From: a virus
Length of the DNA: 64,000 nt
Strand: one strand, 5' to 3'
IMG/VR virus record: IMGVR_UViG_3300044691_000274
Span: 1 to 64,000 of that record
Positions 4,337 to 23,909 of the stretch are shown piece by piece. The position numbers and the translations under genes are program-made. The notes under the pieces were generated by a model. It had not been told where the DNA came from, made no database searches, and saw nothing but the letters and a program-made list of their open reading frames with translations. Each line of letters opens with the position of its first letter. Within the stretch, counting starts at the first letter, position 1.

Positions 4337-5020
4337 ATGTTGCGAGCCCTCGATCTGTTCTGCGGCGCCGGAGGAGCCACCAAGGGCCTGCAGCTTGCTG
4401 GCTTCCACGTGACCGGCGTCGACTTCGAGCCGCAACCCCACTATTGCGGCGACCAGTTCATCCAGAAGAGCGTGTTCGACCTAGAGCCGTGGGTCTTCAA
4501 CCTGTTCGACCTGCTCTGGGCCTCGCCCAAGTGCCAAGCCAGCACCATCCTCAAGCACATGCACAACGCCAAGAAGCACGAGGACCAAATCCCCGCGACG
4601 CGCGCGCTGCTGCAGAAGACGGGCAAGCCTTACATCATCGAGAACGTGATGGGCGCCTCGCTGCTCAAGCCGTTCGTCCTGGACGGCACCATGTTCGGGC
4701 TGGAGACATCGTGCGGCGCGCAGCTGCTCCGGCCACGACAATTCGAGACCAGCTTCGAGTTCGGCCCGACGCCGCTCAGCAACAAGATCAAGGGCCGCAA
4801 GGTGATTGGCGTCTACGGCGGCCACCTGCGCTGTCGCATCCGTCGTGATGGATCGCACGCGCGCGGCATCCAGGACTTCCCGATCGCTGAGGGCTATCGC
4901 GCCATGGGCATCGACTGGATGACCCTTGGTGAATTGAGCCAAGCAATTCCCCCGGCCTATTCCAAGTTCATCGCCAACCGTTGGAGGCAGCACGTGCAAA
5001 CGTCTGCAATCGCGGCATGA
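4337..5020 (+). CDS. Short C5-cytosine DNA methyltransferase
   Basis: Motif I LDLFCGAGG, motif IV ASPKCQ, motif VI IENV, C-terminal AMGIDWMT..ELSQAIPP. Confidence 0.85.
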   Translation: MLRALDLFCGAGGATKGLQLAGFHVTGVDFEPQPHYCGDQFIQKSVFDLEPWVFNLFDLLWASPKCQASTILKHMHNAKKHEDQIPATRALLQKTGKPYIIENVMGASLLKPFVLDGTMFGLETSCGAQLLRPRQFETSFEFGPTPLSNKIKGRKVIGVYGGHLRCRIRRDGSHARGIQDFPIAEGYRAMGIDWMTLGELSQAIPPAYSKFIANRWRQHVQTSAIAA

Positions 5021-6945
5021 GCGCGCTCGCCTTCACGCCGTACATCGAAGTCTTGGACGAGTTCCGCGCGTTCGGTAAAGCCGGCGATTACGTGTGGGCC
5101 AACTCCAAGGAAATTCAGGACGAAGACGAGCGTCTCGAATACCTGAAGGATGCAATCGTTTGGCTGACCCTCAAGCTGGCCGAGAAAGGCAAATGGCGCG
5201 AGACGCCGGTCGACTTCCGCACCTTCGTCGAGCACGCCTCGCTGCTGAACAAGCGGAACATCCTCTATCCAGAGGTGATGCGCTGCGGCATCGAGATGAA
5301 CTCCGGCCGCTATGTAGAGGCGGTGCTGACGGGAGGCATCGGCGTGGGCAAGACCCATCTGTCGATCTATTCGATGGCGTATCAAGTCTACCTGCTAAGC
5401 TGCATGGCCAACCCGCACAAGATGTATGGCCTCGACCCGGCCTCGTTTATTGTGATGATCTTCCAGTCGATCAACAAGAACCTGGCGATGGACGTCGATT
5501 ACCGCGCGTTCCGCGAAGTGGTTGAACACAGTCCTTACTTCGAGAACCACTATCGCTTCGACCACCAGAAGCTCTCGGAGATGGCCTTCCCGAACAGCTT
5601 GCTGATCAAGCCGGTCTCAGGCGCCATCACGGCCTCCATTGGACAGAACGTCATCGGGGGCATCCTCGACGAGGTGAACTTCATGGCGGTGATTGAGGAG
5701 TCGAAGCTGTCGCGCGACGGCTCGGTCTTCGATCAGGCGGCGGCGAATTACAACTCGATCGCTCGACGTCGTGAGTCGCGCTTCATGAAGATGGGCGTGT
5801 TGCCGGGCCTGCTGTGCCTCGTGTCGTCCAAGAACTATCCAGGCGGGCTCACGGACCGCAAGGTGGAAGAGGCGCGCACGAACAAGCTGATCTACGTCTA
5901 CGAGAAGCGCGTCTGGGACATCAAGCCTTACGACTTCAAGCCCGAGCGCTTCCGCGTGTTCGCGGGCGACCCGACCCGCCATCCCCGAATTCTAACCGAC
6001 GAGGACGTTGTCCCGGAGGCCGACGAGCGTCTCGTGATCGAGGTGCCTTACGAATATCGCTTCCGCTTCGAGAACAACCTGATCGACTCGATCCGCGACA
6101 TCGCGGGCTTCTCGACGCAAGCCTTGCACCCGTTCATCCTCAACACCGAAGCGGTCAACCGATGCTTCGGCAGCGTGAAGTCGATCCTGTCGCGCGACGA
6201 CGCCGACTTCAAGGTGACGTTCCTGAAAGGCTATCCCGATTTCATCCAGAACAGGGAAGAGCCGCGCTTCGCCCACGTCGACTTGTCCCAAACGAGGGAC
6301 AGCACGGGGGTCGCGATGGGCCACGTGCCAGGCTTCAAGATGTGCAGTCGCGGGGTCGATGGGTGGGAGAAGCTGCCGATCATCCAGTTCGACTTCCTGC
6401 TGGAGGTCAAGCCACCGGCCGGCGGGGAAATCCTGTTAGAGAACGTGCGCTCGGTCATTTACAAGTGCCGCGAAAATCTGCACCTGGACGTCCGCTGGGT
6501 CAGCTTCGACGCTTTCCAATCGAGCGACTCCAAACAGCTGATGGCGCTCAAAGGCTTCTCGACCGGCCACCAGTCCGTTGACAAGACGACGATGCCTTAC
6601 GACCTGCTCAAGCAAGCGCTCTACGACGGTCGCGTCATCGCGCCCAAGCATGAGAAGGCGCTGAGGGAACTCTGCACCCTGGAATTCGACGCCAAGCACC
6701 AGAAGGTCGATCATCCCCCGCAAGGCTCGAAGGACATAAGCGATGCGATGGCGGGCGTCGTCTACGGGCTCACGATGCGGAGCGCGACGTGGATCAATCA
6801 CGGCGTCGAGACGCGGGAAGCACCATCCATCATGGCGGCGGTCGGCGCCGATCAGGTCAAGCAGCAGGCGAACACGACCTACGTCAACACGATGCGCGGC
6901 CAGCGCGGCGTCGGCCCATTGGAGACAGATGATGGCGACTTTTAG
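5017..6945 (+). CDS. terL: Terminase large subunit
   Basis: Walker A LTGGIGVGKT, Walker B ILDEV, nuclease motifs HVDLSQTRDSTG and KVDHP..GSKDISDA; ATGA overlap with the upstream gene. Confidence 0.9.
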   Translation: MSALAFTPYIEVLDEFRAFGKAGDYVWANSKEIQDEDERLEYLKDAIVWLTLKLAEKGKWRETPVDFRTFVEHASLLNKRNILYPEVMRCGIEMNSGRYVEAVLTGGIGVGKTHLSIYSMAYQVYLLSCMANPHKMYGLDPASFIVMIFQSINKNLAMDVDYRAFREVVEHSPYFENHYRFDHQKLSEMAFPNSLLIKPVSGAITASIGQNVIGGILDEVNFMAVIEESKLSRDGSVFDQAAANYNSIARRRESRFMKMGVLPGLLCLVSSKNYPGGLTDRKVEEARTNKLIYVYEKRVWDIKPYDFKPERFRVFAGDPTRHPRILTDEDVVPEADERLVIEVPYEYRFRFENNLIDSIRDIAGFSTQALHPFILNTEAVNRCFGSVKSILSRDDADFKVTFLKGYPDFIQNREEPRFAHVDLSQTRDSTGVAMGHVPGFKMCSRGVDGWEKLPIIQFDFLLEVKPPAGGEILLENVRSVIYKCRENLHLDVRWVSFDAFQSSDSKQLMALKGFSTGHQSVDKTTMPYDLLKQALYDGRVIAPKHEKALRELCTLEFDAKHQKVDHPPQGSKDISDAMAGVVYGLTMRSATWINHGVETREAPSIMAAVGADQVKQQANTTYVNTMRGQRGVGPLETDDGDF

Positions 6946-7487: not shown

Positions 7488-8017
7488 CCAGCAACACCGC
7501 GCGCGCCAACCTGCGCAACAAGGACGCCGAGATCATCTCGACCGCAGTTCCGGCCCATATGATGCTGCTCATGGTCGAGCAGTGCCAGAAGGTCGGAGTC
7601 GACGTCCGGCTCGACGTGATGAAGCATTTGGTCAACGCTGTGGTCGCGCCGCTCGCGCGCTGCGACTCCGCGACCGTCTCCCGCCTCACCCGTCGGATCG
7701 ATGACACGGCGACGACGCTGCTCCACGACCTGAGCCCAGACGACCCACGGCACGGCCTTTATTGCTGCGCCATGTTCTGCATGAAGCTGGTCGACGAGAA
7801 GCGCTTCCCCGACGCGCGCAACCAGGCGGTCTTGGTCTCGATGCTGCTGATGGACGACATCAAGGACGATCGGCCGGACGTGAATGGCGAGCTGCCGGTC
7901 TGGCGCCTGCAGGAGGCAAGCTGGATCGCCGAGGCCAATCGCTTGATCGGACGAGCCAATCTTTTGGGGCTTTACTTGAAGGACGATCTGGTGCCCCAGG
8001 TGCAAGATGCCTTATAA
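7484..8017 (+). CDS. Hypothetical protein
   Basis: GAGGA upstream; ATGA overlap; typical codon usage. Confidence 0.6.
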   Translation: MTSNTARANLRNKDAEIISTAVPAHMMLLMVEQCQKVGVDVRLDVMKHLVNAVVAPLARCDSATVSRLTRRIDDTATTLLHDLSPDDPRHGLYCCAMFCMKLVDEKRFPDARNQAVLVSMLLMDDIKDDRPDVNGELPVWRLQEASWIAEANRLIGRANLLGLYLKDDLVPQVQDAL

Positions 8018-8465
8018 GAATAAAGAGGATAAGGCTGCCAATAACCGCGCCTGGACTAAGAACAACCGAGAGAAGAGGCGCGCGCATACTAGCGCGTGGG
8101 CGAAGCGTAACCCTGACAAAACCAGTGGCTACGCCAGGGCCTATGGCAGAAAGACTTACGTCAAGACACAGAGGGCTGCTGCCGTGCCAAAGGATGCTAG
8201 CTATTATCGGTTAAAGCGTTACGGTTTGTCCAAGGAGGCGTACTCAGCTTTGTTGGACAAGCAGGATGGCAAGTGCGCGATCTGCCGCGAGGAAATTGCA
8301 CTCCACGTTGATCACGATCATGCGACCGGAGACGTTCGCGGCCTGTTGTGTCGAGCCTGCAATAACGGCATCGGCAATTTCGCCGACGACCCGGCACGTC
8401 TGCAGGCTGCTATTGACTATCTCGCACCTCTAGTGCAATCAACTGCCCTGACGGCAGGAGCCTGA
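8007..8465 (+). CDS. Endonuclease VII-like (His-Me finger) homing endonuclease
   Basis: KRYGL..Q.GKCAIC..LHVDHDH.TG.VRGLLC..CN.GIG; lower GC than flanks. Confidence 0.88.
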   Translation: MPYKNKEDKAANNRAWTKNNREKRRAHTSAWAKRNPDKTSGYARAYGRKTYVKTQRAAAVPKDASYYRLKRYGLSKEAYSALLDKQDGKCAICREEIALHVDHDHATGDVRGLLCRACNNGIGNFADDPARLQAAIDYLAPLVQSTALTAGA

Positions 8466-11519: not shown

Positions 11520-11581
11520 GTGGGTTGCAATTAAGTGCAATCTGAGTATGGTGCGGACTGCCAGGCAACATGGAGGTTCCT

Positions 11582-13504
11582 GTGGCGTCAAAGCATATCT
11601 ACCGCATATCGGGCTCGGTCTGCGACTATAGCGAGGACCCCAAGTCCAAGGAAGCCAAGGCGCTGCTCGGCGGCAAAGGCGCTGGCCTCGTGATGATGGC
11701 CAAGGCCGGCTGCAACGTACCTCCAGCCTTCACGATCACGACCGAGGTGTGCAACGCCTACCGCGAACTGAAGCCCAGCAAGCAGCAAGTGCTCCTGGTC
11801 GACCTCATGCTGGAGGTCATGGATCACATGAAGTGGTTGACCGAGCAGTTCGGCTATACGCCGCTGGTCTCGGTCCGCTCCGGCGCCCCGGTTTCGATGC
11901 CCGGCATGATGGACACCATCCTGAACGTCGGCATGACCGAAGGCAACTTCGACAATTGGGAGAAGCGGCTCGGCAACCGCGCGGCGATCGACAGCTGGCG
12001 CCGGCTGATCCAGATGTTGGGCTCGACCGGATATGGCATCGATATGGCCAAGTTCGACGACCAGCTGGCGGCGACCAAGAAGCTCTACAAGGTCGAGTCC
12101 GACACCGACCTGACCTCCGACATGCTCGACAACGTCCTGCAGCGCTACCGCAAGGTGTTCAAGGAGGCCATGGGGTTTGAGTTCCCCGACAACGACGCGG
12201 AGGTGCAGCTTCACGTTGCCATCAAAGCAGTGTTCGACTCCTGGATGAACCCGCGCGCGATCGAGTATCGCAAGATCAACCACATCGACGAGGGCATGGG
12301 CACAGCAGTCACCGTCCAAGCGATGGTCTTCGGCAACATGGGCGACGACTGCGGGACAGGCGTGCTGTTCTCCCGCGAGCCTTCGACCGGCCAGAAGTTC
12401 ATGATGGGGGAGTTCCTGACCAACGCGCAAGGCGAGGACGTGGTCGCCGGCATACGAACGCCGATGAGCGTCGAGCGGATGCACCCTTCACTCGTCCTCG
12501 AAGACATCCCGCACCAAGATATGTGGCATGACATATACACCACCCTGCTACACCTCTGCGCCCATCTGGAGGACGCTTATATGGACATGGTCGACATCGA
12601 GTTCACCGTCCAGAAGGGCGAGCTGTTCGTCCTCCAGAGCCGCTCGGGGAAGCGCAGCGCGCGGGCAGCGTTCCAGATCGCGACCGACCTGGTGTCAGAG
12701 GGCAAGATCACAAAGGATGCCGCCCTTGGCCGCCTCACGCGCGAGCAGTTCAAGGTAGTGCGGCGCCCGACCATCGACCCAAGCTTCAAGGGGAAGCCCG
12801 ATGACATCGGCCTGCCGGCGTGCCCCGGCGTGGTCAGCGGCATCCCCGTTTTCACATCCGAGGCTGCAGTCAATTGCAAGGAGCCCTGCATCCTGGTCCG
12901 GCATGAGACCGACCCCGACGACATCGCTGGCATGGCCAAGGCGGTTGGCATCCTAACACAGACCGGCGGCGCCACGAGTCACGCAGCGGTGGTCGCGCGC
13001 GCCATGGACAAGGCTTGCGTGGTTGGTTGCACGACCCTCGACATCCCAGACATCAAGGAGCAGGTGAAAAAGCTGACGATCGACGGCTCCACCGGCCGCG
13101 TGTGGTTCGACATCGACGTCCCGGTTATCGACAGCTCGGATGAGGAGTCGGTCAAGAAGGTGACGGCCTGGTGTATGGCGAAGCAGGGAGCAATAGAGGC
13201 GAGCCCAGTCGGACTAGGCGAGGAGCAGCATCTGGTGTTCGCCGCGCACTGGTGGGGCAGCGAGATCGCGGCCGAAGCCATCCTGGCCGACATGCCCAAG
13301 ACGGCGCTGCTCGACGACCGGCACCCACGAGCCTTCGCCAGCGCGAGCGACTTCGTGGTGCAGCATTGCTTCGGCGAGGTGGAGAGCGCTGGGTTCTTCC
13401 CGGTCCTCAAGAAGCTGGCGAAGGAGCACAAAGTGAAGTTCGCGCCAGTCCTTGGCAATGCCTGCCCAGGAGAATATGCGGTCTTTCAAACGCTGACGAG
13501 TTAG
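11582..13504 (+). CDS. ppdK: PPDK-family dikinase: ATP-grasp plus phospho-His swivel domains, lacking the C-terminal PEP/pyruvate barrel
   Basis: LLGGKGAGL, PLVSVRSGAPVSMPGMMDTILN, VQAMVFGN, NAQGEDVVAGIRTP, DIEFT..LQSRSGKR, GGATSHAAVVAR; about 640 aa, no CGEH motif; GGAGG before GTG 11582. Confidence 0.88.
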   Translation: MASKHIYRISGSVCDYSEDPKSKEAKALLGGKGAGLVMMAKAGCNVPPAFTITTEVCNAYRELKPSKQQVLLVDLMLEVMDHMKWLTEQFGYTPLVSVRSGAPVSMPGMMDTILNVGMTEGNFDNWEKRLGNRAAIDSWRRLIQMLGSTGYGIDMAKFDDQLAATKKLYKVESDTDLTSDMLDNVLQRYRKVFKEAMGFEFPDNDAEVQLHVAIKAVFDSWMNPRAIEYRKINHIDEGMGTAVTVQAMVFGNMGDDCGTGVLFSREPSTGQKFMMGEFLTNAQGEDVVAGIRTPMSVERMHPSLVLEDIPHQDMWHDIYTTLLHLCAHLEDAYMDMVDIEFTVQKGELFVLQSRSGKRSARAAFQIATDLVSEGKITKDAALGRLTREQFKVVRRPTIDPSFKGKPDDIGLPACPGVVSGIPVFTSEAAVNCKEPCILVRHETDPDDIAGMAKAVGILTQTGGATSHAAVVARAMDKACVVGCTTLDIPDIKEQVKKLTIDGSTGRVWFDIDVPVIDSSDEESVKKVTAWCMAKQGAIEASPVGLGEEQHLVFAAHWWGSEIAAEAILADMPKTALLDDRHPRAFASASDFVVQHCFGEVESAGFFPVLKKLAKEHKVKFAPVLGNACPGEYAVFQTLTS

Positions 13505-13510
13505 GCTATA

Positions 13511-13891
13511 GTGAAGTCAACTGCACAAATCGCGGCGATACGCGCCAGCCAAAAGGCATATCGGCTACGGAACAAGGAGGCTGTCGCCGCGCGCAAGCGA
13601 GCGTATCGTGCCACCAAACCGCCAGCCATTAAGAGGGCTTGGCAAAGGCGCAACGCCAAAGAGCCTTGGTTGGTGAACAGGTATGGGATCACGCAAGAGG
13701 AACGAGACGCGATGATCGCGGCGCAGGGCGGGCGGTGCCTGATCTGCCAAGAAGAGACGAAGCTGCACGTGGATCACTGCCACGAGACGAAAAAGGTTAG
13801 AGGCTTGTTATGCAGGGAGTGCAACACCGGCCTCGGAAAATTCAAGGAACGGGTCGACCTCTTGGAGAGAGCGATCCACTACTTAGCGTAA
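13511..13891 (+). CDS. Endonuclease VII-like homing endonuclease
   Basis: RYGIT..QGGRCLIC..LHVDHCH....VRGLLC..CNTGLG. Confidence 0.88.
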   Translation: MKSTAQIAAIRASQKAYRLRNKEAVAARKRAYRATKPPAIKRAWQRRNAKEPWLVNRYGITQEERDAMIAAQGGRCLICQEETKLHVDHCHETKKVRGLLCRECNTGLGKFKERVDLLERAIHYLA

Positions 13892-13907
13892 CTACACGGA
13901 GGCCGTC

Positions 13908-14189
13908 ATGCCCTTAGTTCTTCGCTTAAAGTCAGGGCAGGATTTCTTCGTCAAGGGCGTCCAGATCGTGGTCGACAAGCTCCACGGCGACGCGAAGTTC
14001 GACCTCAAGGTCCCGTCAACCGGCCGAGTCTATTCGATCGACGAAGACGCGGCGACGGAAATGCGGGAAGTCGAGGACGTCTTCCTATCGTCCGGCGGCC
14101 GAGTCCAAGCAGGCATCGCCAAGGTGATGATCGACGCACCCCGCTCGATCGACATCCAGCGCGGGGAAAACGTACGAGGGCACAAGTGA
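13908..14189 (+). CDS. CsrA/RsmA-like RNA-binding protein (extended, 93 aa)
   Basis: N-terminal LVLRLKSGQDFFV and C-terminal AKVMIDAPRSIDIQRGE parallel CsrA LILTRRVGE..I and VRIGVNAPKEVSVHREE. Confidence 0.6.
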   Translation: MPLVLRLKSGQDFFVKGVQIVVDKLHGDAKFDLKVPSTGRVYSIDEDAATEMREVEDVFLSSGGRVQAGIAKVMIDAPRSIDIQRGENVRGHK

Positions 14190-14389
14190 GCTTCCGGCTA
14201 TACGAGATCACAGAGGAGGTCGTCATCCAGGCCAAGCACCTGGGACTCTTCGGCGACACGAAGAAGAGGCTGCAGCGCGCGGCGCGCCGGAGCGTTCCTT
14301 ATACGAGTGACCTCGGCAATCGCCGCTTCCTAGATTTTGCATTGACCATCACTGACGATGTGGTGGTGAACATCGAGCGCATCCACTGA
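14186..14389 (+). CDS. Small hypothetical protein
   Basis: GTGA overlap with the CsrA-like gene. Confidence 0.55.
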   Translation: MSFRLYEITEEVVIQAKHLGLFGDTKKRLQRAARRSVPYTSDLGNRRFLDFALTITDDVVVNIERIH

Positions 14390-14457
14390 TTTGGTGGTTG
14401 CAATTGATTGCAATTCGGTTATCGTCCACGCAGGCACCCAAACAGGAGGTTCGGGTC

Positions 14458-15006
14458 ATGAACAAGCCGATCCACGTACACGACTTTTCCAAGGGGACGC
14501 CTCCGCCAGGCGCCAACGGCACGATGCCGATCAAGATGGGCTTCAAGGGAGGCTACCTCTCGATCGAGATCATCGGCGGCCCGTTCGACAACTATCGCCC
14601 AGGCGAGAACGGCGACATCGGCATCTGCGTCCGCGCCGAGCGCGTTCCTGCGACCGCCAACATATGGGTGCCCATTCGTGACTTCGACGTCCCGAAGACG
14701 AAGGACTTGGCTCAAGTCGAGCATGCCCTGGAGTGGGCCATCGCGTCGGCGCTGGACGGCAAGCGGGTCTACGTGGGCTGCCAAGGCGGCTGGGGCCGCA
14801 CAGGGCTGTTCCTGGCGCTCATCGCCAAGGTCTGCGGGCTCAAGGACCCGGTCGACTATGTCCGGCACACGTACACGCCGCGCGCGGTCGAAACGAAGGA
14901 GCAGCAGGCATACGTCGACGACTTCGATGTGACCCAGCTGCAGCGCGACCTGCTCTACCGCGCCTGGGGCATCCGTTGGGCGCGCCTTTGGTTCTGGTGG
15001 ACGTGA
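14458..15006 (+). CDS. Cys-based (CX5R) tyrosine/dual-specificity-type phosphatase 1
   Basis: PIRDFDVP acid loop, P-loop YVGCQGGWGRTG, AVET.EQ loop; AGGAGG upstream. Confidence 0.85.
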   Translation: MNKPIHVHDFSKGTPPPGANGTMPIKMGFKGGYLSIEIIGGPFDNYRPGENGDIGICVRAERVPATANIWVPIRDFDVPKTKDLAQVEHALEWAIASALDGKRVYVGCQGGWGRTGLFLALIAKVCGLKDPVDYVRHTYTPRAVETKEQQAYVDDFDVTQLQRDLLYRAWGIRWARLWFWWT

Positions 15007-15233
15007 TGCGGGTCAAGGAACTGATAGCCTTACTCGCAAAGGCTGACCCAGAGACGTTTGTCGTTCTCGATGAAAGCGAGTTGCTCGTGCTTGTGAGCGA
15101 CGTGGAATACATCCTCCCGTACAAGCAGGGGAGCGTTATTCCGAAGGCCGTTATTCTCAGAGCACGCCTCTACAGTCCAAAAACCGTGCTTGGGTGGACT
15201 CCCATCGACCCGGCTGCGCGGTCCTCGATTTGA
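15006..15233 (+). CDS. Small hypothetical protein
   Basis: TGATG overlap; MRVKELIALL start resembles the MTVAQL ORFs. Confidence 0.5.
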   Translation: MRVKELIALLAKADPETFVVLDESELLVLVSDVEYILPYKQGSVIPKAVILRARLYSPKTVLGWTPIDPAARSSI

Positions 15234-15296
15234 CTTGCAAGTAATTGCACGCGGAGCTATGACTCCGGGTGACACTAGGGCCAACAGGAGGTTGCC

Positions 15297-16367
15297 TTGG
15301 CGATAACCGATCCGCAAGACACTCTCGCCTACCACGCCTCGCGCGTGTTCTGCCAACAGCGGGACATGTCCGAGGTGTCGTGCGAGCAGGTCGCCAAGGT
15401 GGTTGCCGAGTTCAAGAGCAGCGATCCAAAGCCCAACACCGTGCCGGAGACCGACGCGCTCTGGTTCTATGGGATGAACCACGGTGTGGCGCTGATCGCC
15501 CAGCATCGCGCGCCGCTTGAGCCGCTCGATCCCTGGGAGCTGAGCTTCGTCCAGAAATACCACGAGTACATGGGGCCGAAGGCGGTCCGCGCGTTCTACT
15601 ATCTCATCTGGATTTGCATCCGCGAGGCGCGACACAACAAGTCGCTGACCGCCGACCTGCCGAAGATCGAGAAGCTGTTCGGCGAGAAGATGGCAGCCTT
15701 CATGAACGGCGCCGGCGGAGAGGACGGCATCTCGAAGCGCTTCCTCGACAACCCGCCTCCGATGACCATCGGAAACTTCGTCAAGGCGATAGCCTGGCAG
15801 TTCGACAACAGCACTTGGCACAAAGGTTATGGCGGCAAGAAGTGGGGCGTCGTGACCGATTGCCTCGTACGCTTCTGCACCGGCGAGTATAGTGCCGAAG
15901 TAATGTTGGATCAAGTCTGGACATTGGCACATAACGGGGGTCCCATCTTCAACAAGGGATTTTGTTATGACCATTACGACTCGATTGTACTCTATCGAAT
16001 ACTTGACGTTCAACGCTCTGGCCAGGTGCCGGAAGCTTGCCTGTTCGACGTGGACTGCAAACAATACGCTGCACTCGACCTGATCGCCCTCATGAAGGAC
16101 GTCAAGGACCGCTATCCCGTTATCGGCGACTATGTCGACTGGATCAAGGTCGAGGCGCTCGGGGCCGTCAAGACGTATGAGGCAGACATCGAGAACCAGA
16201 GCAAGACCCCGGAGCAGAAGGCGGCCGAGGCCGAGCTAGTCGCCAAGAAAAAGGCGCTGGCAGCGGCGGCGCAGCAAGCCATCTGGGAGAAGAAGAACAA
16301 GCAGGCCAAAGACTGGTTCCAGGTTATGCCTGGGCTCGAAGTCAAGAAAATCGTGAGGGCAGCATAG
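15297..16367 (+). CDS. Phage protein of unknown function with enzyme-like motifs
   Basis: AGGAGG upstream, TTG start; REARH, GYGG..W, D..W.LAHNGGPIFNKG motifs. Confidence 0.7.
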   Translation: MAITDPQDTLAYHASRVFCQQRDMSEVSCEQVAKVVAEFKSSDPKPNTVPETDALWFYGMNHGVALIAQHRAPLEPLDPWELSFVQKYHEYMGPKAVRAFYYLIWICIREARHNKSLTADLPKIEKLFGEKMAAFMNGAGGEDGISKRFLDNPPPMTIGNFVKAIAWQFDNSTWHKGYGGKKWGVVTDCLVRFCTGEYSAEVMLDQVWTLAHNGGPIFNKGFCYDHYDSIVLYRILDVQRSGQVPEACLFDVDCKQYAALDLIALMKDVKDRYPVIGDYVDWIKVEALGAVKTYEADIENQSKTPEQKAAEAELVAKKKALAAAAQQAIWEKKNKQAKDWFQVMPGLEVKKIVRAA

Positions 16368-16369
16368 TC

Positions 16370-17152
16370 ATGGGCAAGGGTCTAAACGACGCGATCCACG
16401 GCGACCGGGCGAAAATTCGGGGATACACTCCGCCGAAGGAGAAGACCTGGGACGAGTGGCTCAACTCGAAGAACGATCCCAAGCCGTCCGCCGGCTTCGC
16501 GGGCGATTATTTCAAGGGGGCCACGTCCTACGCCAACGACGCGAAAGGCGCGAAGGCGGGCTACGTCTCCTGCTATCACTCGCACCCGCCGCTCAAGCTG
16601 CCTGGCACTGAGCTGGTGATCTACGGCGGCTCCTGCAGCAGCCCGGTCGTCAAGGACGCCGACATCTACATCAGGTTCGACGCCGGCATGCTGCCAAGCA
16701 ACAACGAGACCAAGTTCCTGCCGGACCGCAAAGACATTTTCTACCGCATCTCCGACATGCGACCGCCGACCAACCCCAAGACGTTCGCCCAGCTCGTCGA
16801 CTGGACGGGCCAGCAGCTGGCGGACGGGAAGAAGGTCCACTGCGGCTGCATCGGCGGCCACGGCCGCACAGGGACGTTCCTAGCGGCCCTCGTCTCCCGC
16901 TTCGGCGAGTCGGACGCGATCGCCTACGTCCGGAAGAATTACTGCAAGAAGGTGGTCGAGAGCAGCGACCAGGTGAAGTTCCTCGGCGCGCACTTCGGAG
17001 TCAAGGCCGCCGCGCACACCAAGGAGTATGAGACCAAGCCCAAGAAAGCAGCCACCAAGTTCCTGACCTACTCGTCTGGGACAAAACAGTCGCAGGGCCG
17101 CGAGCCGATCAAGTTTACGAACGTTAGCGGCAACGGTTGCATCTGGGGATAG
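16370..17152 (+). CDS. Cys-based (CX5R) phosphatase 2
   Basis: ISDMRPP acid loop, P-loop VHCGCIGGHGRTG, YVRKNYC...VES..Q. Confidence 0.85.
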   Translation: MGKGLNDAIHGDRAKIRGYTPPKEKTWDEWLNSKNDPKPSAGFAGDYFKGATSYANDAKGAKAGYVSCYHSHPPLKLPGTELVIYGGSCSSPVVKDADIYIRFDAGMLPSNNETKFLPDRKDIFYRISDMRPPTNPKTFAQLVDWTGQQLADGKKVHCGCIGGHGRTGTFLAALVSRFGESDAIAYVRKNYCKKVVESSDQVKFLGAHFGVKAAAHTKEYETKPKKAATKFLTYSSGTKQSQGREPIKFTNVSGNGCIWG

Positions 17153-17243: not shown

Positions 17244-18242
17244 GTGGCGTCTATACAATTAAAGGCTGCTGCGTTCAACGGCACTTCGTTCATGAAGGCC
17301 GTCGGCGTGGACGCCAAGGTGTTGGAACAGCTCAAATCTTTGGGCTGGGCAGTGCAAATGACTGCAAAAAAGCTCGTGCTTGCCAAAGAGGGCAGCGAGA
17401 TATCGACCCCGATCACGTCTGAGATGATCCACAAGGCGTATTCCGGGGAGCTGATGAACCATCCAATAATGCTGTCGGCGCTGGAGAACCTCGCGATGGA
17501 GGCGATCAACATCGTCGGCTTTGCCATTCCCAAGAATAAGGTCTCCTCTCTCAAGTTTGAAGACGTCTTCGATCAGTCGGGTGTGCTGGAGGCAGCCAAG
17601 CTGGGGCCGGCAACCGAGCAGCTGCTGAAGGCGGCAACAGCCGCTCCGCCGGCAACCACGCAGATGGTCAAGCAATTCTTCGCAGCGAACCTCGGGCTGC
17701 CGCAGTCCATCCTCATCAATAGCTACGCCAAAAAATTCGGGGTGTCTGCCTTCATCGCAGCCGACGCGGTGCAGACTTGGTTGAACGGGCACGCAACTGT
17801 GGTCGCCACCGGAGGCCCATCGTCCACCTTCGTCGTCGTCAACAGCGGATCATTTCCGACGTTCGACCTCGCCAAGATGGAGACCTCTCCGCCGGTCAAG
17901 CTCCGCGACGCGAACATGATGTACCAACCGGTCAAAGGTTCGTCAGATGGATCGCGCTATTTCATGATCGCTGCCAACAAAGACGTGCGCATCGCCGCGC
18001 GCTTTAAGGCGGACAAGCTCGGCATCCGGATCGAGGGGCCGAACTGGAAGAAACATCTCTCCGGGATCACGCAGCTCGGCATCGTGCAAGACTCCGGCGG
18101 CAAGGATTACGCCAGCCTGCACCTCGAAATACACGACATAGTGGTGGCCAAGAAGACCATGGGAGCCATCCTGATGGGCCTGAGCCTGCCGCTGGATACC
18201 CCGATGCCAAACATGGAAGTCATCTACGGGAAGGGAAGCTGA
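17244..18242 (+). CDS. Hypothetical protein
   Basis: AAGGAGG upstream; 332-aa ORF. Confidence 0.7.
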   Translation: MASIQLKAAAFNGTSFMKAVGVDAKVLEQLKSLGWAVQMTAKKLVLAKEGSEISTPITSEMIHKAYSGELMNHPIMLSALENLAMEAINIVGFAIPKNKVSSLKFEDVFDQSGVLEAAKLGPATEQLLKAATAAPPATTQMVKQFFAANLGLPQSILINSYAKKFGVSAFIAADAVQTWLNGHATVVATGGPSSTFVVVNSGSFPTFDLAKMETSPPVKLRDANMMYQPVKGSSDGSRYFMIAANKDVRIAARFKADKLGIRIEGPNWKKHLSGITQLGIVQDSGGKDYASLHLEIHDIVVAKKTMGAILMGLSLPLDTPMPNMEVIYGKGS

Positions 18243-19113: not shown

Positions 19114-21513
19114 ATGATTACTTTCTATACGTCAGCCAAGGCGGAGTCGGCAGAGGCCATCTTCGGCAAGTCGCTGAAGTCGTTCCGCCCGAACATCCCC
19201 ACCCATCGGTTCGTCCCGCGCAAGGAGGGCGTCGCGCTGCCCAAGCCTGAGCCGGGCGAGGTGGTCATCGTCTGCGGCCCGTGGTGCTTCCTGGACGTGC
19301 AATTGGCCGGCCTGGCGCCGAAGAACCGGTCCCTCAATTCAATGCGGGAGCGTGCAATTGCCTGCAATGGCGGCTGGTATCTGCTGACGTTCGACCCGAG
19401 CGTGCTCCAGACCGAGCCGGAGAAGCGGGAGATCATCGACTGGGACGTCCGCCTCGCCCACCGCCTGATGACCACCGGGGACCTTAAGCCCAAGGTCGGG
19501 GATTACGTTTGGGTGGCCTCCTATGCGCAGTTAATTGCAGACATCGAAGCCGAGTTCGAGAAGACCGGCAAGCCGGTGAAAGTCAGCTTCGACACCGAGA
19601 CCATGGGGCTTTACCCCTGGTATCCGAAAAAGGACTTCGTCTGCCTTCAGGTCACGCATCGCAAGGGCCGCTCCGAGCTGATCTACCTTGGCCAGTCCCG
19701 CGCGCACCCGATCGAGCTTGAGGCCGGCATCCTCGACCAAATCAAGTGGCTGCTGAACAGCCCCAAGGTCCGCCTGCGCATGGCGAACGGCAAATACGAC
19801 CTGATCTGGATCAAGGAGAAGTGGAACATCGACTGCACGAACTTCACGTTCGACACGCTGCTGGTCGGCTCACTGCTCGACGAGAACCGGAGCGGCTCCC
19901 TCAACATCCACGCCAAGCTGTTCACCGATTTCGGGGGCTACGACGACGACTTCAACGCCAAGTTCGACAAAGGCAAGATGGACGAGGTCCCGGTCGAGGA
20001 CATGCTCGTCTACGCGGGCGGGGACACCGACGCCTGCTACCAGGTGGCCGACATCATGCAGGCCGAGCTAGACGAGGACCCAGCGCTCAAACGGTTCTAC
20101 GTGACCATCCTGCACCCGGCGGCGCGCGCGTTCGAGAAGATCGAGCGGCGCGGAGTCCTGATCGACCAGGAGAAGTTCGCCATCCTCCGGCAGGACCTGC
20201 AGAAGGCCATCAAGGACAGCCAGAACGCCCAGATGGACCTGCTGCCGCCGAAGATGCGGATCAAGTGGATGGACCGCATCGACGACCAGCTGGCGCAGGG
20301 CAAGAACCCGCTGCTGCCCTCGATCGTCAACGAATACTTTTTCACCCCGCACGGCCTGAACCTCAAGCCGCAGCTCTACACGCCGAAGGACAAGAAGGCA
20401 TCGCTTGCGAAGGCCCACCTCCGCCTGGTTGGAGAAGGGCACCCGGTGGCCGGCAAGCTGATCGCGGAGATGACGATAGGCGACTCTGCGTCCAAGACGC
20501 TGTCGACCTTCGTGGACGGCTTCCTCAAGCACCTGCGTCCGGATGGCCGCTTCCACCCGAGCTACATGCTGTTCCACGGTGGCTTCGGCGACGGCGACGA
20601 GGACGACGCGGGCACCACCACCGGCCGGCTGAGCGCCAAGGAGCCCGCCTTCCAGATCATCCCCAAGAAGACCAAGTGGGCCAAGCGTATCCGCGAGTGT
20701 TACATCGCGCCTCCCGGCAAAGTCATCGTCTCGATCGACTATAGCCAAGGTGAACTGCGCGTCGTCGCGTGCTTCGCGCCAGAGAAGACGATGATCCAAG
20801 CCTACAAAGACAACCTTGATCTGCACGCGGTGACGGGCGCGCGGCTCGCGGGGGTGGACTTCAAGGAGTTCATCACCTGGAAAGACCACAGCGACAAAGA
20901 ATTGGCGGACCTTTTCGACAAGCACAGAGGGAACGCCAAGCCTGCGAACTTTGGGCTGCTCTATGGTCAGATGGCCCCAGGCTTCATGGCTTACGCTTAT
21001 GCCAACTACAATATCAAGCTTACACTGGCCCAAGCCGAAGAGATGCGGGACGCTTTCTTCAGCCTATACCCAGGGTTGCTTGACTTCCACAAACGCCAGA
21101 TCAACATCACTGGCCTGCACGGAGAAGTGCGCAGCCCGCTCGGCCGCATCCGCCACCTCCCCAACATCTGGAGCAAAATCGGCGCCATCCGAATGAAGGC
21201 GGAGCGCCAGGGGATCAACGCCCCGATCCAATCGTGCCTGGCCGACATGATGGAATGGGCGATCGCGCTCATAAACGACGCGTTCCCGAACGAAGAGGTC
21301 CAGGTGGTCGGCAACATCCACGACGCGCTCATCGCCTATATCGACGAGGACAAGGTCGAGGCCATCCTGCCGCAGGTCATGGAGATCATGTCCACCCTGC
21401 CGCTCCACAAGATGGATTGGCACCCGCAGGTGCAGTTCACGGTCGACGGCGAGTACGGCTCCAACCTGGCCAACATGAAGAAGTTCAAGCCAGCCCTAAA
21501 ACTTGCCGCCTGA
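19114..21513 (+). CDS. polA: Family A DNA polymerase with 3'-5' exonuclease and a degenerate UDG-like N-terminal domain
   Basis: Exo I FDTET, exo II NGKYD, exo III YAGGD; TTTGRLS; motif A DYSQGELR; motif B RGNAKPANFGLLYG; motif C IHDA. Confidence 0.95.
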   Translation: MITFYTSAKAESAEAIFGKSLKSFRPNIPTHRFVPRKEGVALPKPEPGEVVIVCGPWCFLDVQLAGLAPKNRSLNSMRERAIACNGGWYLLTFDPSVLQTEPEKREIIDWDVRLAHRLMTTGDLKPKVGDYVWVASYAQLIADIEAEFEKTGKPVKVSFDTETMGLYPWYPKKDFVCLQVTHRKGRSELIYLGQSRAHPIELEAGILDQIKWLLNSPKVRLRMANGKYDLIWIKEKWNIDCTNFTFDTLLVGSLLDENRSGSLNIHAKLFTDFGGYDDDFNAKFDKGKMDEVPVEDMLVYAGGDTDACYQVADIMQAELDEDPALKRFYVTILHPAARAFEKIERRGVLIDQEKFAILRQDLQKAIKDSQNAQMDLLPPKMRIKWMDRIDDQLAQGKNPLLPSIVNEYFFTPHGLNLKPQLYTPKDKKASLAKAHLRLVGEGHPVAGKLIAEMTIGDSASKTLSTFVDGFLKHLRPDGRFHPSYMLFHGGFGDGDEDDAGTTTGRLSAKEPAFQIIPKKTKWAKRIRECYIAPPGKVIVSIDYSQGELRVVACFAPEKTMIQAYKDNLDLHAVTGARLAGVDFKEFITWKDHSDKELADLFDKHRGNAKPANFGLLYGQMAPGFMAYAYANYNIKLTLAQAEEMRDAFFSLYPGLLDFHKRQINITGLHGEVRSPLGRIRHLPNIWSKIGAIRMKAERQGINAPIQSCLADMMEWAIALINDAFPNEEVQVVGNIHDALIAYIDEDKVEAILPQVMEIMSTLPLHKMDWHPQVQFTVDGEYGSNLANMKKFKPALKLAA

Positions 21514-21790: not shown

Positions 21791-21911
21791 CCTGTACGGT
21801 CATGCAATCAACTGCACTGACTCCCGGCTTGCCGGACCAGCAGTGCAGCGTCCGTAGGCGACGCAGTATGTGCAATTGATTGCAAACGCTGCTGAGCCGG
21901 TGGAGGTTCGC

Positions 21912-23909
21912 ATGGTCGATCAAGTCGTCAAGGACGGCGAGAAGCCTGTTCAGCAAGTGCTGCGCTTGGTTGTGCCCAACGCTGGCATCCGCACGGACTT
22001 GGCCGGCCTACGCAAGGACCTCGGACCGCATGGTGGCAACACCAAAGGCAAGGACGGCACGGACGCCATCCAGGACAACGTCTTCGAGCCGGAAGACGAA
22101 TATCAGCAGCTCTACGTCGGCGCGACGCGCGACCAGGGCGTGATCCAGCCCCCGTACAATCCCCGCCAGCTCGACTATCTGAGCCAGCAGAACAACACGC
22201 TCGGCCCCTGCATCGAGGCGATGGTCACGAACGTCGACGGGACCGGCTACGACTTCGTCTCGGAAGACACCGACGAGGACGACGCCCAGGACGACCCGAA
22301 GGTCGACGAGCTAGAAGAGTTCTTCGCTCAGCCGTGGCCCGACATGTCCTTCCTGGAGATGCGCAAAATCCTGCGGCGCGACGAGGAGCGCACCGGCAAC
22401 GCCTATATCGAAGTCCTGCGGAACGCCCAAGACGAAGTCGTCATGTTCCGGCACATCGACGCGAAGATGATGCGGATGCTGCGCCTCGACGACGCCATCC
22501 CGGTAGACAAGACCGTGAACCGACAGGGCAAAGACATCACGCTCAAAGTCATGTCCCGAGAGCGCCGTTATTGCCAGCTCGTCAACGGCGTAACCCTGAT
22601 GTATTTCAAGGAGTTCGGCGCTTGCCGGGACCTCCATAAGAAGACGGCTGTGTGGTCGCCCCAAGGCCAGCGCCTGCCGGCGGCGCAGCGCGCGACCGAG
22701 GTCATTCACTTCACGCTGATCCCCGACGCGCACACGCCTTACGGCATCCCGCGCTGGATCATGCAGACCCCGTCCATCCTCGGCTCGCGCCAGGCGGAAG
22801 AGTTCAACCTTGAGTTTTTCAAGAGCGGCGGCATCCCGCCGGTGATGGTCATCCTGCAGGGGGGCACGCTCCAGGCCAAGACCCGCCAGGCGATCGAGAA
22901 CATGAACGCGGGCGACGCCTCGAAGAAGAACCGGATGCAGGTGCTCGAAGTCGAGCCCACGGCAGGCAGCCTGGACAAGGCAGGCGTAGCCAAGGTGACG
23001 GTCGAGCGCTTCGGGTCGGATCGCCAGAAGGACTCGATGTTCGAGGAATACGACGCCAAGTGCGAGGAGCGCGTCCGCCGCGCCTTCCGCCTGCCGCCGA
23101 TGTTCCTGGGGCAGTCCAAGGATTACAATTTCGCGACAGCCTTCGCCTCGTACACGGTGGCCGAGGCCCAGGTGTTCAAGCCGGAGCGCGAGGCGTTCGA
23201 CATGGTCATCTCGATGAAGCTCCTGCCCGCCATGGGCTACGAGGGCTATAAGATGCGGTCGAAGAAGTTGGTCATCGAAGACGCGACCCTGAAGCTGCAA
23301 GGCATGGAGGTGATCATGGCCATGGGCGACCAGGTGGAGCCAGGCGACGTGGTCAAGGCGGTCAACGACATCACCGGCACCACGCTCAAGGTCTCCGACA
23401 ACGCCCCCGACCTCGCCGCCAAGCAACAGCAGCAGGTCCAGCAGACGATGATGCAGCACCAGATCGGCATGGCGCAAGCGAACGCTGGCGCGGGCGCCGC
23501 GAACAAGGGAGCGATCAAGCCGATCAACCCCCAGCCCAAGTCTCCGACAGGTCTCCCCGTACCAGGCAGTATTAGGGCCAACGGCGGCAACCCAGGCGCC
23601 ATCAAGCCGAAGCAGTTGCCAGGCGTCATGGGAGGCGCCGGAACGCCTGTGGCCGCGCCTACGCGCAAGACCGACATGACGATCCCGGAGTTCGCCATGC
23701 ACGCCGTCAAGGCTCTGCGCAAGCGCGACCTTATCGAACTGGCTTGGGTCCTCCCGATCATCGGCGGCCTCGACGAGGACAGCCGGGCTCAGTTCGACGC
23801 GGCGACCGCCGACTTGGCGTTCGTCGACACCACCTACGATCCGGCGGGTCTCGCAGCCCTCGCCAGCGCGACGATGGACGTCATGGCCGGCTGCGGCCAC
23901 AGCCACTGA
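21912..23909 (+). CDS. Portal protein (PBSX/XkdE-like) with Gln/Pro/Gly-rich extension
   Basis: D.ERTGNAYIEV.RN, EVIHF, YGIPRW, N.EFF..GGIP, AFRLPPMFLG, NFATA; GGAGG upstream. Confidence 0.9.
   Translation: MVDQVVKDGEKPVQQVLRLVVPNAGIRTDLAGLRKDLGPHGGNTKGKDGTDAIQDNVFEPEDEYQQLYVGATRDQGVIQPPYNPRQLDYLSQQNNTLGPCIEAMVTNVDGTGYDFVSEDTDEDDAQDDPKVDELEEFFAQPWPDMSFLEMRKILRRDEERTGNAYIEVLRNAQDEVVMFRHIDAKMMRMLRLDDAIPVDKTVNRQGKDITLKVMSRERRYCQLVNGVTLMYFKEFGACRDLHKKTAVWSPQGQRLPAAQRATEVIHFTLIPDAHTPYGIPRWIMQTPSILGSRQAEEFNLEFFKSGGIPPVMVILQGGTLQAKTRQAIENMNAGDASKKNRMQVLEVEPTAGSLDKAGVAKVTVERFGSDRQKDSMFEEYDAKCEERVRRAFRLPPMFLGQSKDYNFATAFASYTVAEAQVFKPEREAFDMVISMKLLPAMGYEGYKMRSKKLVIEDATLKLQGMEVIMAMGDQVEPGDVVKAVNDITGTTLKVSDNAPDLAAKQQQQVQQTMMQHQIGMAQANAGAGAANKGAIKPINPQPKSPTGLPVPGSIRANGGNPGAIKPKQLPGVMGGAGTPVAAPTRKTDMTIPEFAMHAVKALRKRDLIELAWVLPIIGGLDEDSRAQFDAATADLAFVDTTYDPAGLAALASATMDVMAGCGHSH

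What the first reader, a model, noticed from the sequence alone, without database searches (positions are those of the whole stretch)
11582..17152. Dikinase without a pyruvate domain clustered with two CX5R phosphatases: candidate reversible phosphorylation system
Seen: the PPDK homologue keeps the ATP-grasp domain and catalytic His (GGATSHAAVVAR) but ends about 130 aa after the swivel domain. It lacks the roughly 340-aa PEP/pyruvate barrel and its CGEH motif. Within 3.7 kb follow two intact CX5R phosphatases (CQGGWGR, CIGGHGR) flanking a 356-aa unknown with enzyme-like motifs. Known: ATP-grasp plus His-swivel modules are redeployed on other acceptors in rifampin phosphotransferase and glucan-water dikinase, and plant glucan dikinases are opposed by CX5R phosphatases (SEX4/LSF2). 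From memory, and unverified, similar genes in some Vibrio siphoviruses are simply annotated as a PPDK metabolic gene. Inference: this is not a pyruvate enzyme but a writer/eraser module acting on an unknown substrate (protein, nucleotide, signalling molecule or glycan). The 356-aa protein or the novel C-tail may supply the acceptor site.
Basis: partly seen in the sequence, partly recalled or inferred. Interest (0 to 1): 0.85.

Follow-up and report, generated by a model that had tools for sequence, protein, structure and literature searches.

The report
Split phage dikinase-phosphatase phosphotransfer module
A phage gene usually labelled "pyruvate phosphate dikinase" is an ATP-driven phosphate carrier that has lost its pyruvate domain; it works with a separate new-fold protein and dedicated cysteine phosphatases, and its target is unknown.

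Summary
The 644-aa protein (11570-13504) is a PPDK ATP-grasp plus phospho-His swivel and stops there. No PEP/pyruvate barrel exists anywhere in this complete 103.5-kb phage, nor in 10 family members tested.

Two active-looking CX5R phosphatases flank a 356-aa protein. That protein gives a confident all-helical model with no match in the PDB.

The order dikinase, PTP-A, unk356, PTP-B, unk332, PolA, portal recurs in 90 viral and prophage loci, down to about 29% identity.

New here: in an unrelated complete virus, one 865-aa protein carries ATP-grasp, swivel and an unk356-like domain, followed by a phosphatase gene. Two further viruses encode a stand-alone swivel domain, an unk356-like protein and a phosphatase. 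So unk356 is most likely the dikinase's acceptor domain supplied in trans. The poorly conserved C-tail is not.

All four arrangements lie among, or within about 14 kb of, DNA-replication genes. The substrate remains unknown; a nucleotide or nucleic-acid hydroxyl is my best guess.

Published phage papers call the gene a PPDK metabolic gene. This scan had already met the module on other DNA.

The parts
11570..13504 (+). Truncated PPDK-type dikinase (644 aa): ATP-grasp, phospho-His swivel (His471), and a variable 135-aa C-tail
   Evidence: Pfam PPDK_N and PEP-utilizers, no PEP-utilizers_C. PDB PPDK matches over residues 26-534. 43% identity to a full PPDK, ending at residue 520. Tail poorly conserved.
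13511..13891 (+). Endonuclease VII-family gene inserted between the dikinase and the CsrA-like gene. It is probably a mobile insertion and not part of the module.
   Evidence: Pfam Endonuclease_7, E 4e-25. An endoVII hit occurs in only 3 of 80 related loci, never at this position.
13908..14189 (+). Small CsrA-like protein (93 aa), a frequent companion directly after the dikinase
   Evidence: Weak Pfam CsrA hit, 23.3 bits, below the 27-bit cut-off. A homologue lies in the same position in at least 35 of 80 viral loci and 9 of 10 genome loci.
14458..15006 (+). PTP-A, a dual-specificity-type cysteine phosphatase. In the numbering from the TTG at 14398: Cys128, Arg134, Asp95.
   Evidence: Pfam PTP-SAK, 29.3 bits. 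P-loop GC..G.GRTG and the Asp are conserved in 78 of 78 loci. Absent in L081/L082.
15297..16367 (+). unk356: new-fold all-helical protein, the probable acceptor/substrate domain of the dikinase supplied in trans
   Evidence: AF2 pLDDT 91. No PDB match. 2550 50%-identity clusters. Fused to a dikinase in L221:7280-9877. Invariant residues: E110, R112, H113, G179, G180, W183, D205, H212, N213, K220, D237.
16370..17152 (+). PTP-B, a cysteine phosphatase with a His in the P-loop (Cys160, His164, Arg166, Asp129). This is the type found in every version of the module.
   Evidence: Pfam PTP-SAK, 29.0 bits. GC[ILMV]GGHGRTG in 77 of 78 loci; the exception is cut by a contig end. The single phosphatase of the three distant modules has the same His-type loop.
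17244..18242 (+). unk332: clade-specific companion with a variable N-terminal part and a conserved C-terminal alpha/beta domain (about residues 205-332)
   Evidence: Present after PTP-B in 71 of 80 loci. C-domain pLDDT 96-98. Only weak likeness to the MotA C-terminal domain and to DHHA1.
19114..21513 (+). Family A DNA polymerase, the constant downstream neighbour (context, not a proven part)
   Evidence: Pfam DNA_pol_A and 3'-5' exonuclease. Follows the module in 73 of 80 loci.

Best explanation
This is a split, three-part phosphotransferase of the PEP-utilising (PPDK) superfamily, not a pyruvate enzyme.

Step 1, inferred from conserved PPDK motifs: the ATP-grasp domain uses ATP to load the swivel His471 with phosphate, as PPDK does.

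Step 2, inferred from a natural fusion: the swivel carries the phosphate to a substrate held by the all-helical unk356 protein. That protein takes the place of PPDK's pyruvate barrel but is encoded separately here.

Step 3, inferred: the PTP-B-type cysteine phosphatase is the obligate partner in every version of the module. It hydrolyses a phosphate on the product, on a pathway intermediate or on a mis-phosphorylated species. PTP-A is a clade-specific paralogue with a second specificity. unk332 is a clade-specific accessory.

Target, a guess: the hydroxyl of a nucleotide or of nucleic acid, tied to phage DNA replication or modification. The set is a core gene block inside replication modules.
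For: 1. The PPDK core is intact and the barrel is absent from the protein, the genome and the family. The ATP-grasp and swivel motifs are the best-conserved parts of the family.
2. Rosetta-stone fusion. In a complete 90.9-kb virus, L221:7280-9877 is one 865-aa ORF with PPDK_N, the PEP-utilizers mobile domain and an unk356-like domain at residues 578-753 (hhalign probability 97.9%, E 5.8e-13). A phosphatase gene follows it.
3. Two further viruses carry a stand-alone swivel ORF, an unk356-like ORF and a phosphatase. These three viruses share no detectable portal with this phage and only a distant PolA.
4. Synteny holds in 80 viral and 10 genome loci, down to about 29% identity.
5. Cys, Arg and Asp of both phosphatases are conserved in all loci. 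A conserved ET..Q stretch follows the P-loop.
6. Replication context in each arrangement: PolA here; RNase H, DnaB-like helicase and primase in G001; a weak helicase-like hit (DinG, E 1e-5) and a UDG-domain polymerase in G002; a distant PolA about 8 kb away in G003.
7. DLP3, which carries the module, has DNA resistant to all 15 restriction enzymes tested (PMC7326821).
Against: - No biochemical data exist for any member.
- The fusion shows functional coupling, not the reaction.
- unk356-like cores also occur in roughly 900-aa megaphage proteins with no dikinase recognised nearby, so the domain may have an activity of its own.
- This phage has no ThyA-type or ThyX enzyme, which argues against the known hydroxymethyl-pyrimidine route to hypermodified DNA.
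- DLP3 also has a glycosyltransferase and sugar-nucleotide genes that could explain its resistant DNA.
- Within the main clade, synteny with PolA, portal and terminase is equally conserved, so adjacency there may reflect descent.
- Two true hydrolases beside a kinase have no obvious role in a simple one-step pathway.
Confidence: 0.6

Rival explanations
1. A genuine PPDK auxiliary metabolic gene that interconverts pyruvate and PEP to boost host energy metabolism, as the published phage papers state.
For: GenBank annotations and papers say so. TIGR01828 scores 541 bits.
Against: TIGR01828 needs 843 bits and only positions 9-523 of 865 match. No PEP-utilizers_C barrel exists in the protein, in the complete genome or in 10 family members at E<=0.1. 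The tail shows no profile similarity to a PPDK barrel. A fused relative has a helical domain where the barrel would be.
Confidence: 0.02
2. A regulatory writer/eraser switch on a protein. The dikinase phosphorylates a host or phage protein, and the two phosphatases reverse this or strip host phosphoproteins during takeover.
For: The nearest solved relatives of both phosphatases are protein-tyrosine or dual-specificity phosphatases. The general acid Asp and P-loop are intact.
Against: No PPDK-superfamily member is known to me to phosphorylate a protein other than the PTS carrier HPr. The module is a core gene block in replication regions of four different virus types, not a variable early or accessory gene. 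The cassette proteins were not detected in DLP3 virions.
Confidence: 0.12
3. A PTS-like relay. The swivel His~P phosphorylates the CX5R cysteine, and the 'phosphatases' then act as phosphotransferases that hand the phosphate to the final acceptor.
For: The swivel domain is the same module as in PTS enzyme I. PTS EIIB proteins use Cys~P. Stand-alone swivel ORFs of 115-127 aa in G002 and G003 look like free carriers.
Against: Both phosphatases keep a conserved Asp and an ET..Q stretch. From my own knowledge of classical PTPs, those features serve hydrolysis of the Cys~P intermediate. The fusion partner of the dikinase is unk356, not a phosphatase.
Confidence: 0.08
4. Counter-defence. The set phosphorylates or dephosphorylates an immune signalling nucleotide or NAD/ADP-ribose derivative, or rebuilds a depleted nucleotide.
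For: Rhodanese-phosphatase enzymes act on ADP-ribose-type phosphates in virus-host conflicts (PMC9503650). Pfam's best models for the two phosphatases come from conflict systems (PTP-SAK, Tc-R-P).
Against: Its position is fixed and its presence universal across a deep clade. From my own knowledge, that is unlike typical variable anti-defence islands. There are no PADLOC matches and no Macro, Nudix or NADAR partner in the block.
Confidence: 0.12

Closest known systems
Pyruvate, phosphate dikinase (EC 2.7.9.1; e.g. C. symbiosum 1KBL/1DIK, Flaveria 5JVN)
   Same: ATP-grasp nucleotide domain and phospho-His swivel, 43% identical to a full PPDK over residues 30-520. The GG.TSHAAVVAR motif is shared.
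   Different: The whole PEP/pyruvate TIM barrel is missing. An unrelated helical protein, fused in some relatives, stands in its place.
PPDK-superfamily enzymes with exchanged acceptor domains: rifampin phosphotransferase, glucan-water dikinase, PigC/RedH
   Same: The same logic: an ATP-grasp plus swivel His serving a non-pyruvate acceptor domain.
   Different: Only weak partial matches, 46-52 bits against cut-offs of 999-1350. The domain order differs from RPH. No carbohydrate-binding module is present. The acceptor domain is a separate gene and the fold is new.
Short actinobacterial 'PPDK' family NF004531 / PRK05878
   Same: It is also a barrel-less PPDK-like protein. The score is 421 bits over profile positions 16-482 of 534.
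   Different: The score is below the family cut-off of 456. From my own knowledge, that family's function is also unknown. Whether it has unk356 or phosphatase partners was not tested.
Atypical dual-specificity / archaeal mini-PTPs (Tk-PTP 5Z59, SsoPTP 2I6I, DUSP23)
   Same: The C(X)5R-T P-loop, the upstream Asp and the compact fold.
   Different: Identity is low (E 1e-6 to 2e-3). PTP-B has an invariant His inside the P-loop and long low-complexity extensions. The substrates are unknown.
Plant starch GWD/PWD with SEX4/LSF2
   Same: A dikinase genetically paired with CX5R phosphatases.
   Different: No glucan-binding modules are present. The LSF2 hit is weak (E 0.02). The context is phage DNA replication, not glucan metabolism.

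Membership tests
Pyruvate, phosphate dikinase (TIGR01828) | N-terminal ATP-grasp nucleotide-binding domain | tested here: met
   PF01326, E 2e-46. Aligned to PPDK structures.
Pyruvate, phosphate dikinase (TIGR01828) | Central phospho-His swivel domain with the GG.TSHAAVVAR motif | tested here: met
   PF00391, E 3.5e-24. His471 lies in GGATSHAAVVAR.
Pyruvate, phosphate dikinase (TIGR01828) | C-terminal PEP/pyruvate TIM barrel (PF02896) | tested here: not met
   Absent from the protein, from the whole genome with positive controls in 14 of 14 genomes, and from 10 relatives. hhalign of the tail against a real barrel gives probability 0.1%.
Pyruvate, phosphate dikinase (TIGR01828) | Score above the curated equivalog cut-off | tested here: not met
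   541.5 bits against 843.45.
Rifampin phosphotransferase (NF041857) | Full-length match with the His domain at the C-terminus, score above cut-off | tested here: not met
   46.5 bits against 999. Only the swivel aligns.
Short PPDK-like family NF004531 (PRK05878) | Score above the curated cut-off | tested here: not met
   421.2 bits against 456. Close, but below.
DSP/PTP cysteine phosphatases (Pfam PTP-SAK, PF22784) | C(X)5R(S/T) P-loop and Pfam score above the gathering cut-off | tested here: met
   29.3 and 29.0 bits against 27. The motifs are conserved in 78 of 78 loci.
DSP/PTP cysteine phosphatases (Pfam PTP-SAK, PF22784) | General-acid Asp about 30 residues before the Cys | tested here: met
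   Asp95 (PTP-A) and Asp129 (PTP-B) are at least 90% conserved. Their catalytic role is inferred, not assayed.
Glucan dikinase / glucan phosphatase system | Carbohydrate-binding modules on kinase or phosphatase | tested here: not met
   No CBM family among the Pfam hits of any cassette protein.
Thymidine hypermodification pathway (5-HMUDK plus aGPT-Pplase) | A phage hydroxymethylase (ThyA-like or ThyX) to supply a 5-hydroxymethyl pyrimidine | tested here: not met
   PF00303 and PF02511 are absent from the complete genome.
Thymidine hypermodification pathway (5-HMUDK plus aGPT-Pplase) | An aGPT-Pplase-type transferase | tested here: inconclusive
   unk356 has no Pfam hit. In the viral structure library it matches only its own orthologues. 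No direct profile comparison with an aGPT-Pplase was made.

The most novel reading that the evidence does not exclude
The module is a new route of phage DNA or nucleotide modification. A His-swivel dikinase with the unk356 domain phosphorylates, and so activates or marks, a hydroxyl on a nucleotide or on replicating DNA. The two phosphatases trim intermediates. This chemistry would underlie the total restriction resistance reported for DLP3 DNA.
Probability: 0.25. Interest if true: 0.85.

Novelty: new variant of a known kind. Interest (0 to 1): 0.66.

Why it matters
The family is large: the unk356 profile finds 2550 clusters at 50% identity. It is present in cultured phages of Vibrio, Stenotrophomonas, Rhizobium and Rhodobacter.

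The papers I could read on these phages treat the gene as a glycolytic auxiliary metabolic gene, and one even docks PEP into it (PMC12038007). That label is wrong and it propagates. The second phosphatase became 'thymidylate synthase' in DLP5 and in PHROG 17568. unk332 became 'pyruvate decarboxylase' or 'transporter'.

Recognising a split dikinase with a new-fold acceptor domain and an obligate phosphatase defines a tractable unknown enzyme system. It sits in the replication core of many phages, some of them proposed for therapy or aquaculture use. It may also explain unidentified DNA modification in this group.

Tried and rejected
- Fold searches with the unk356 model found nothing. Foldseek against the PDB gave best E 0.9. 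VIA-align wide gave best Z 4.8, mostly on the terminal helix. The viral library returned only orthologues. The PDB sequence profile gave nothing. The ESM Atlas gave scores of 0.84 or less and TM of 0.32 or less.
- unk332 gave only weak leads. The PDB profile found nothing. MotA C-terminal domain and DHHA1 likenesses reached Z<=3.9, Foldseek E>=0.1 and Atlas TM 0.45-0.63 on short stretches. These are leads only.
- hhalign of the C-tail against a PPDK barrel, unk356 and unk332 gave probabilities of 0.2% or less. I cannot support, from sequence, the idea that the tail is a decayed barrel.
- The search for long fused forms with the unk356 profile found only two proteins of about 800-900 aa without dikinase domains. 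The fusion was found instead through a swivel-motif DNA scan of viral contigs.
- PADLOC gave no matches.
- No RNA holder was listed among public runs.
- Burroughs and Aravind 2023 (NAR Genom Bioinform, lqad029), the paper most likely to mention these phosphatase clades, is not held. I could not check whether it describes this module.
- PMC1392941 (VHS1) is not held.
- No paper in the library combines 'hypermodif', 'phage' and 'dikinase'.


Full report
WHAT IS THERE

The window is the first 64 kb of a complete 103.5-kb uncultured soil phage. IMG/VR classes it as having direct terminal repeats, and CheckV rates it 100% complete. Genes in the region run on the + strand:

| Coordinates | Product |
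|---|---|
| 11570-13504 | dikinase |
| 13511-13891 | endonuclease VII-family gene |
| 13908-14189 | small CsrA-like protein |
| 14458-15006 | PTP-A |
| 15297-16367 | unk356 |
| 16370-17152 | PTP-B |
| 17244-18242 | unk332 |
| 19114-21513 | family A DNA polymerase |
| 21870-23909 | 679-aa ORF homologous to the annotated portal of related phages |

A 654-aa ORF at 4981-6945 takes the position of the annotated terminase of related phages, upstream of the block. It has no Pfam or NCBIfam hit.

THE DIKINASE

- Pfam finds PPDK_N and the PEP-utilizers mobile domain, but not PEP-utilizers_C.
- Solved PPDKs align to residues 26-534 at E about 1e-112.
- A full-length 881-aa PPDK is 43% identical over residues 30-520, and the alignment stops at the end of the swivel.
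- The catalytic motif GGATSHAAVVAR (His471) is intact.
- Across 65 family members, the ATP-grasp and swivel motifs are the best-conserved stretches.
- TIGR01828 scores 541 bits against a cut-off of 843. A short barrel-less 'PPDK' family (NF004531) scores 421 against 456.
- PF02896, the barrel, is absent from the whole genome, while 14 of 14 control genomes gave a hit.
- Ten family members, including RcZahn and Vibrio phage VH2_2019, lack the barrel even at E<=0.1.

THE C-TAIL

- After residue 505 the family has 140-243 residues, and this phage has the shortest tail.
- Only three columns are invariant, all at the swivel end. Mean column identity is 22%. This phage lacks about 85 columns that most relatives have.
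- Profile comparisons of the tail with a real PPDK barrel, with unk356 and with unk332 found nothing.

A catalytic acceptor site in the tail is therefore unlikely. A linker or docking role fits better, but that is inference.

THE PHOSPHATASES

- PTP-A and PTP-B are paralogues, 36% identical in the core.
- Their nearest solved relatives are archaeal mini-PTPs and DUSP23.
- In 78 related loci both keep Cys, Arg and an upstream Asp.
- PTP-A has a variable P-loop position. PTP-B is GC[ILMV]GGHGRTG with an invariant His.
- Both keep a conserved 'VR..Y...AVE[TS]..Q' stretch after the loop. From my own knowledge of classical PTPs, a Gln in that place supports hydrolysis of the Cys-phosphate. I therefore read both as true hydrolases. 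That reading is inference.

UNK356

- 481 close homologues were found. A full HMMER search with a broader profile found 2550 clusters at 50% identity with E<=1e-3. There is no Pfam or NCBIfam family.
- AlphaFold2 with 64 sequences gives a confident all-helical model, pLDDT 91 and pTM 0.83, ending in a long helix and a small beta hairpin.
- Nothing in the PDB resembles it. The viral structure library returns only orthologues.
- Across sequences down to 28% identity the invariant residues are Y58, Y102, R109, E110, R112, H113, G179, G180, W183, G196, D205, L210, H212, N213, K220, L236, D237, Q239 and G242. This looks like an active site.

UNK332

- The N-terminal two thirds are variable. The C-terminal domain is conserved and modelled at pLDDT 96-98.
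- It shows only weak likeness to the T4 MotA DNA-binding domain and to DHHA1 nucleotide-binding domains. These are leads, no more.

LINKAGE

- In 80 IMG/VR loci found through unk356, every locus with enough flank shows dikinase, (CsrA-like), PTP-A, unk356, PTP-B, unk332, PolA, portal.
- Ten loci in bacterial genomes or MAGs labelled Burkholderiaceae, Acetobacteraceae, Azospirillum, Acidobacteriaceae, Helicobacteraceae and others keep the same gene order.
- Cultured relatives RcZahn, DLP5/DLP3 and the roughly 80-kb Vibrio siphoviruses have it too.
- L081/L082 lack PTP-A.

Because the whole region is syntenic in this clade, adjacency alone could reflect descent. I therefore looked outside the clade.

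INDEPENDENT EVIDENCE

A DNA scan of viral contigs for the swivel motif, followed by my own HMMs, picked out three viruses with other architectures.

- G001 is a complete 90.9-kb virus. L221:7280-9877 (- strand) is one 865-aa ORF with PPDK_N and the mobile domain, plus an unk356-like domain at residues 578-753 (hhalign probability 97.9%, E 5.8e-13, 169 columns). It shares the E.RH, GG..W, D, HN.G..FNK and LD motifs. The helical domain thus sits where PPDK has its barrel, in a protein of PPDK length. The next gene is a phosphatase with IGCMGAHGRTG.
- G002 and G003 encode a stand-alone swivel domain (115-127 aa, PF00391 only), an unk356-like protein and a phosphatase with GC.GGHGRTG.
- None of the three has a detectable homologue of this phage's portal. 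Their PolA is only 25-31% identical over part of the protein.

The trio of dikinase or swivel, unk356 domain and His-type phosphatase therefore travels together in unrelated viruses and is fused in one. This is the classic sign that the parts work as one enzyme system.

A caution: unk356-like cores also occur in proteins of about 900 aa in megaphages, with a KOW/SH3-like domain, and I saw no dikinase beside them.

CONTEXT AND LIKELY TARGET

The module lies among, or within about 14 kb of, replication genes in all four arrangements:

| Virus | Neighbouring replication genes |
|---|---|
| This phage | PolA |
| G001 | RNase H, DnaB-like helicase, Toprim primase |
| G002 | a weak helicase-like hit (DinG, E 1e-5) and a UDG-domain DNA polymerase |
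| G003 | a distant PolA about 8 kb away |

- It is a fixed core block rather than a variable island.
- DLP3, which carries it, has DNA resistant to all 15 restriction enzymes tested, and the modification was not identified (PMC7326821).
- DLP3's cassette proteins were not among its virion proteins.
- Against a classical hydroxymethyl-pyrimidine pathway, this phage has neither a ThyA-type nor a ThyX enzyme.
- DLP3 and RcZahn have glycosyltransferase and sugar-nucleotide genes that could account for modified DNA.

My best guess is a nucleotide or nucleic-acid hydroxyl. I hold that at roughly 40%. The architecture reading, a split dikinase with unk356 as acceptor domain and dedicated phosphatases, I hold at roughly 75%.

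LITERATURE

Papers on these phages call the gene a PPDK auxiliary metabolic gene (PMC12038007, PMC10141217). No paper in the searchable library links a dikinase with phage hypermodification. The one paper most likely to treat these phosphatase clades, Burroughs and Aravind 2023, is not held, so prior description there cannot be excluded.

EARLIER NOTES OF THIS SCAN

Earlier notes had met the same module on other DNA and reached similar readings. I used them as leads only. The fusion evidence above was found and tested here.

VERDICT

The block is a new variant of the PPDK-superfamily theme of exchanged acceptor domains. It has a new-fold acceptor encoded in trans and an obligate cysteine phosphatase. 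Its substrate is unknown.

Noticed in passing
window 11526-11539, 14399-14412, 15236-15249 (also 12865, 17353, 19353): TGCA-N6-TGCA palindromic boxes sit just upstream of the dikinase, PTP-A and unk356 starts. There are 38 exact copies in the window against about 1 expected. The box at 14399 overlaps the TTG 'start' of PTP-A, which favours ATG 14458 as the real start.
   Followed up: partly
window 13511-13891 and 8007-8465: Two Endonuclease_7-family genes. The one wedged between the dikinase and the CsrA-like gene has no counterpart at that position in the related loci, and looks like a mobile insertion.
   Followed up: partly
window 13908-14189: A small CsrA-like protein (Pfam CsrA 23.3 bits, below cut-off) follows the dikinase in many relatives. 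Vibrio phage VH2_2019 labels its counterpart CsrA. Its role in the module is unknown.
   Followed up: no
L002 (DLP5) 12532-13320; PHROG 17568; Vibrio phage records H86, H92, H94: Annotation errors are spreading. The PTP-B orthologue of DLP5 is labelled 'thymidylate synthase ThyX', and PHROG 17568 carries that name. unk332 orthologues are labelled 'pyruvate decarboxylase' or 'transporter'. The 'PDC' metabolic gene of the J26 paper (ORF102) may be an unk332 or PTP-B orthologue. The window's unk332 has no Pfam hit at all.
   Followed up: partly
L222:2048-2431 and L223:5047-5394: These are stand-alone phospho-His swivel domains (115-127 aa, PF00391 only) encoded just before an unk356-like gene and a phosphatase. 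No ATP-grasp gene was recognised in the flanks I held. They could be free phosphocarriers or artefacts of split genes.
   Followed up: partly
L100:4341-7190 (LR756511.1, 595-kb uncultured phage); P0125, P0126: Proteins of about 770-950 aa carry an unk356-like core (hhalign probability 96-97%). The 949-aa L100 protein also has a KOW/SH3-like domain. No dikinase or phosphatase was recognised among the neighbours checked in L100.
   Followed up: partly
L093 (Thalassobaculaceae MAG chromosome): The module stops after unk356. No PTP-B, unk332 or PolA lies in the next 7.8 kb. This may be a decaying prophage.
   Followed up: no
L081, L082: In these viral contigs the dikinase is followed directly by unk356, with no PTP-A or CsrA-like gene. 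PTP-A is therefore dispensable in some lineages.
   Followed up: no
window 1228-2784 and 3850-4317: A ParB_N-N6/N4 DNA methylase fusion and a dCTP deaminase/dUTPase-like gene lie upstream. In Vibrio phage VH2_2019 the dcd gene directly precedes the dikinase.
   Followed up: no
genome 96541-97701 (L087:13541-14701): A tyrosine integrase gene is present, so the phage is probably temperate. This fits the prophage copies found in bacterial genomes.
   Followed up: no
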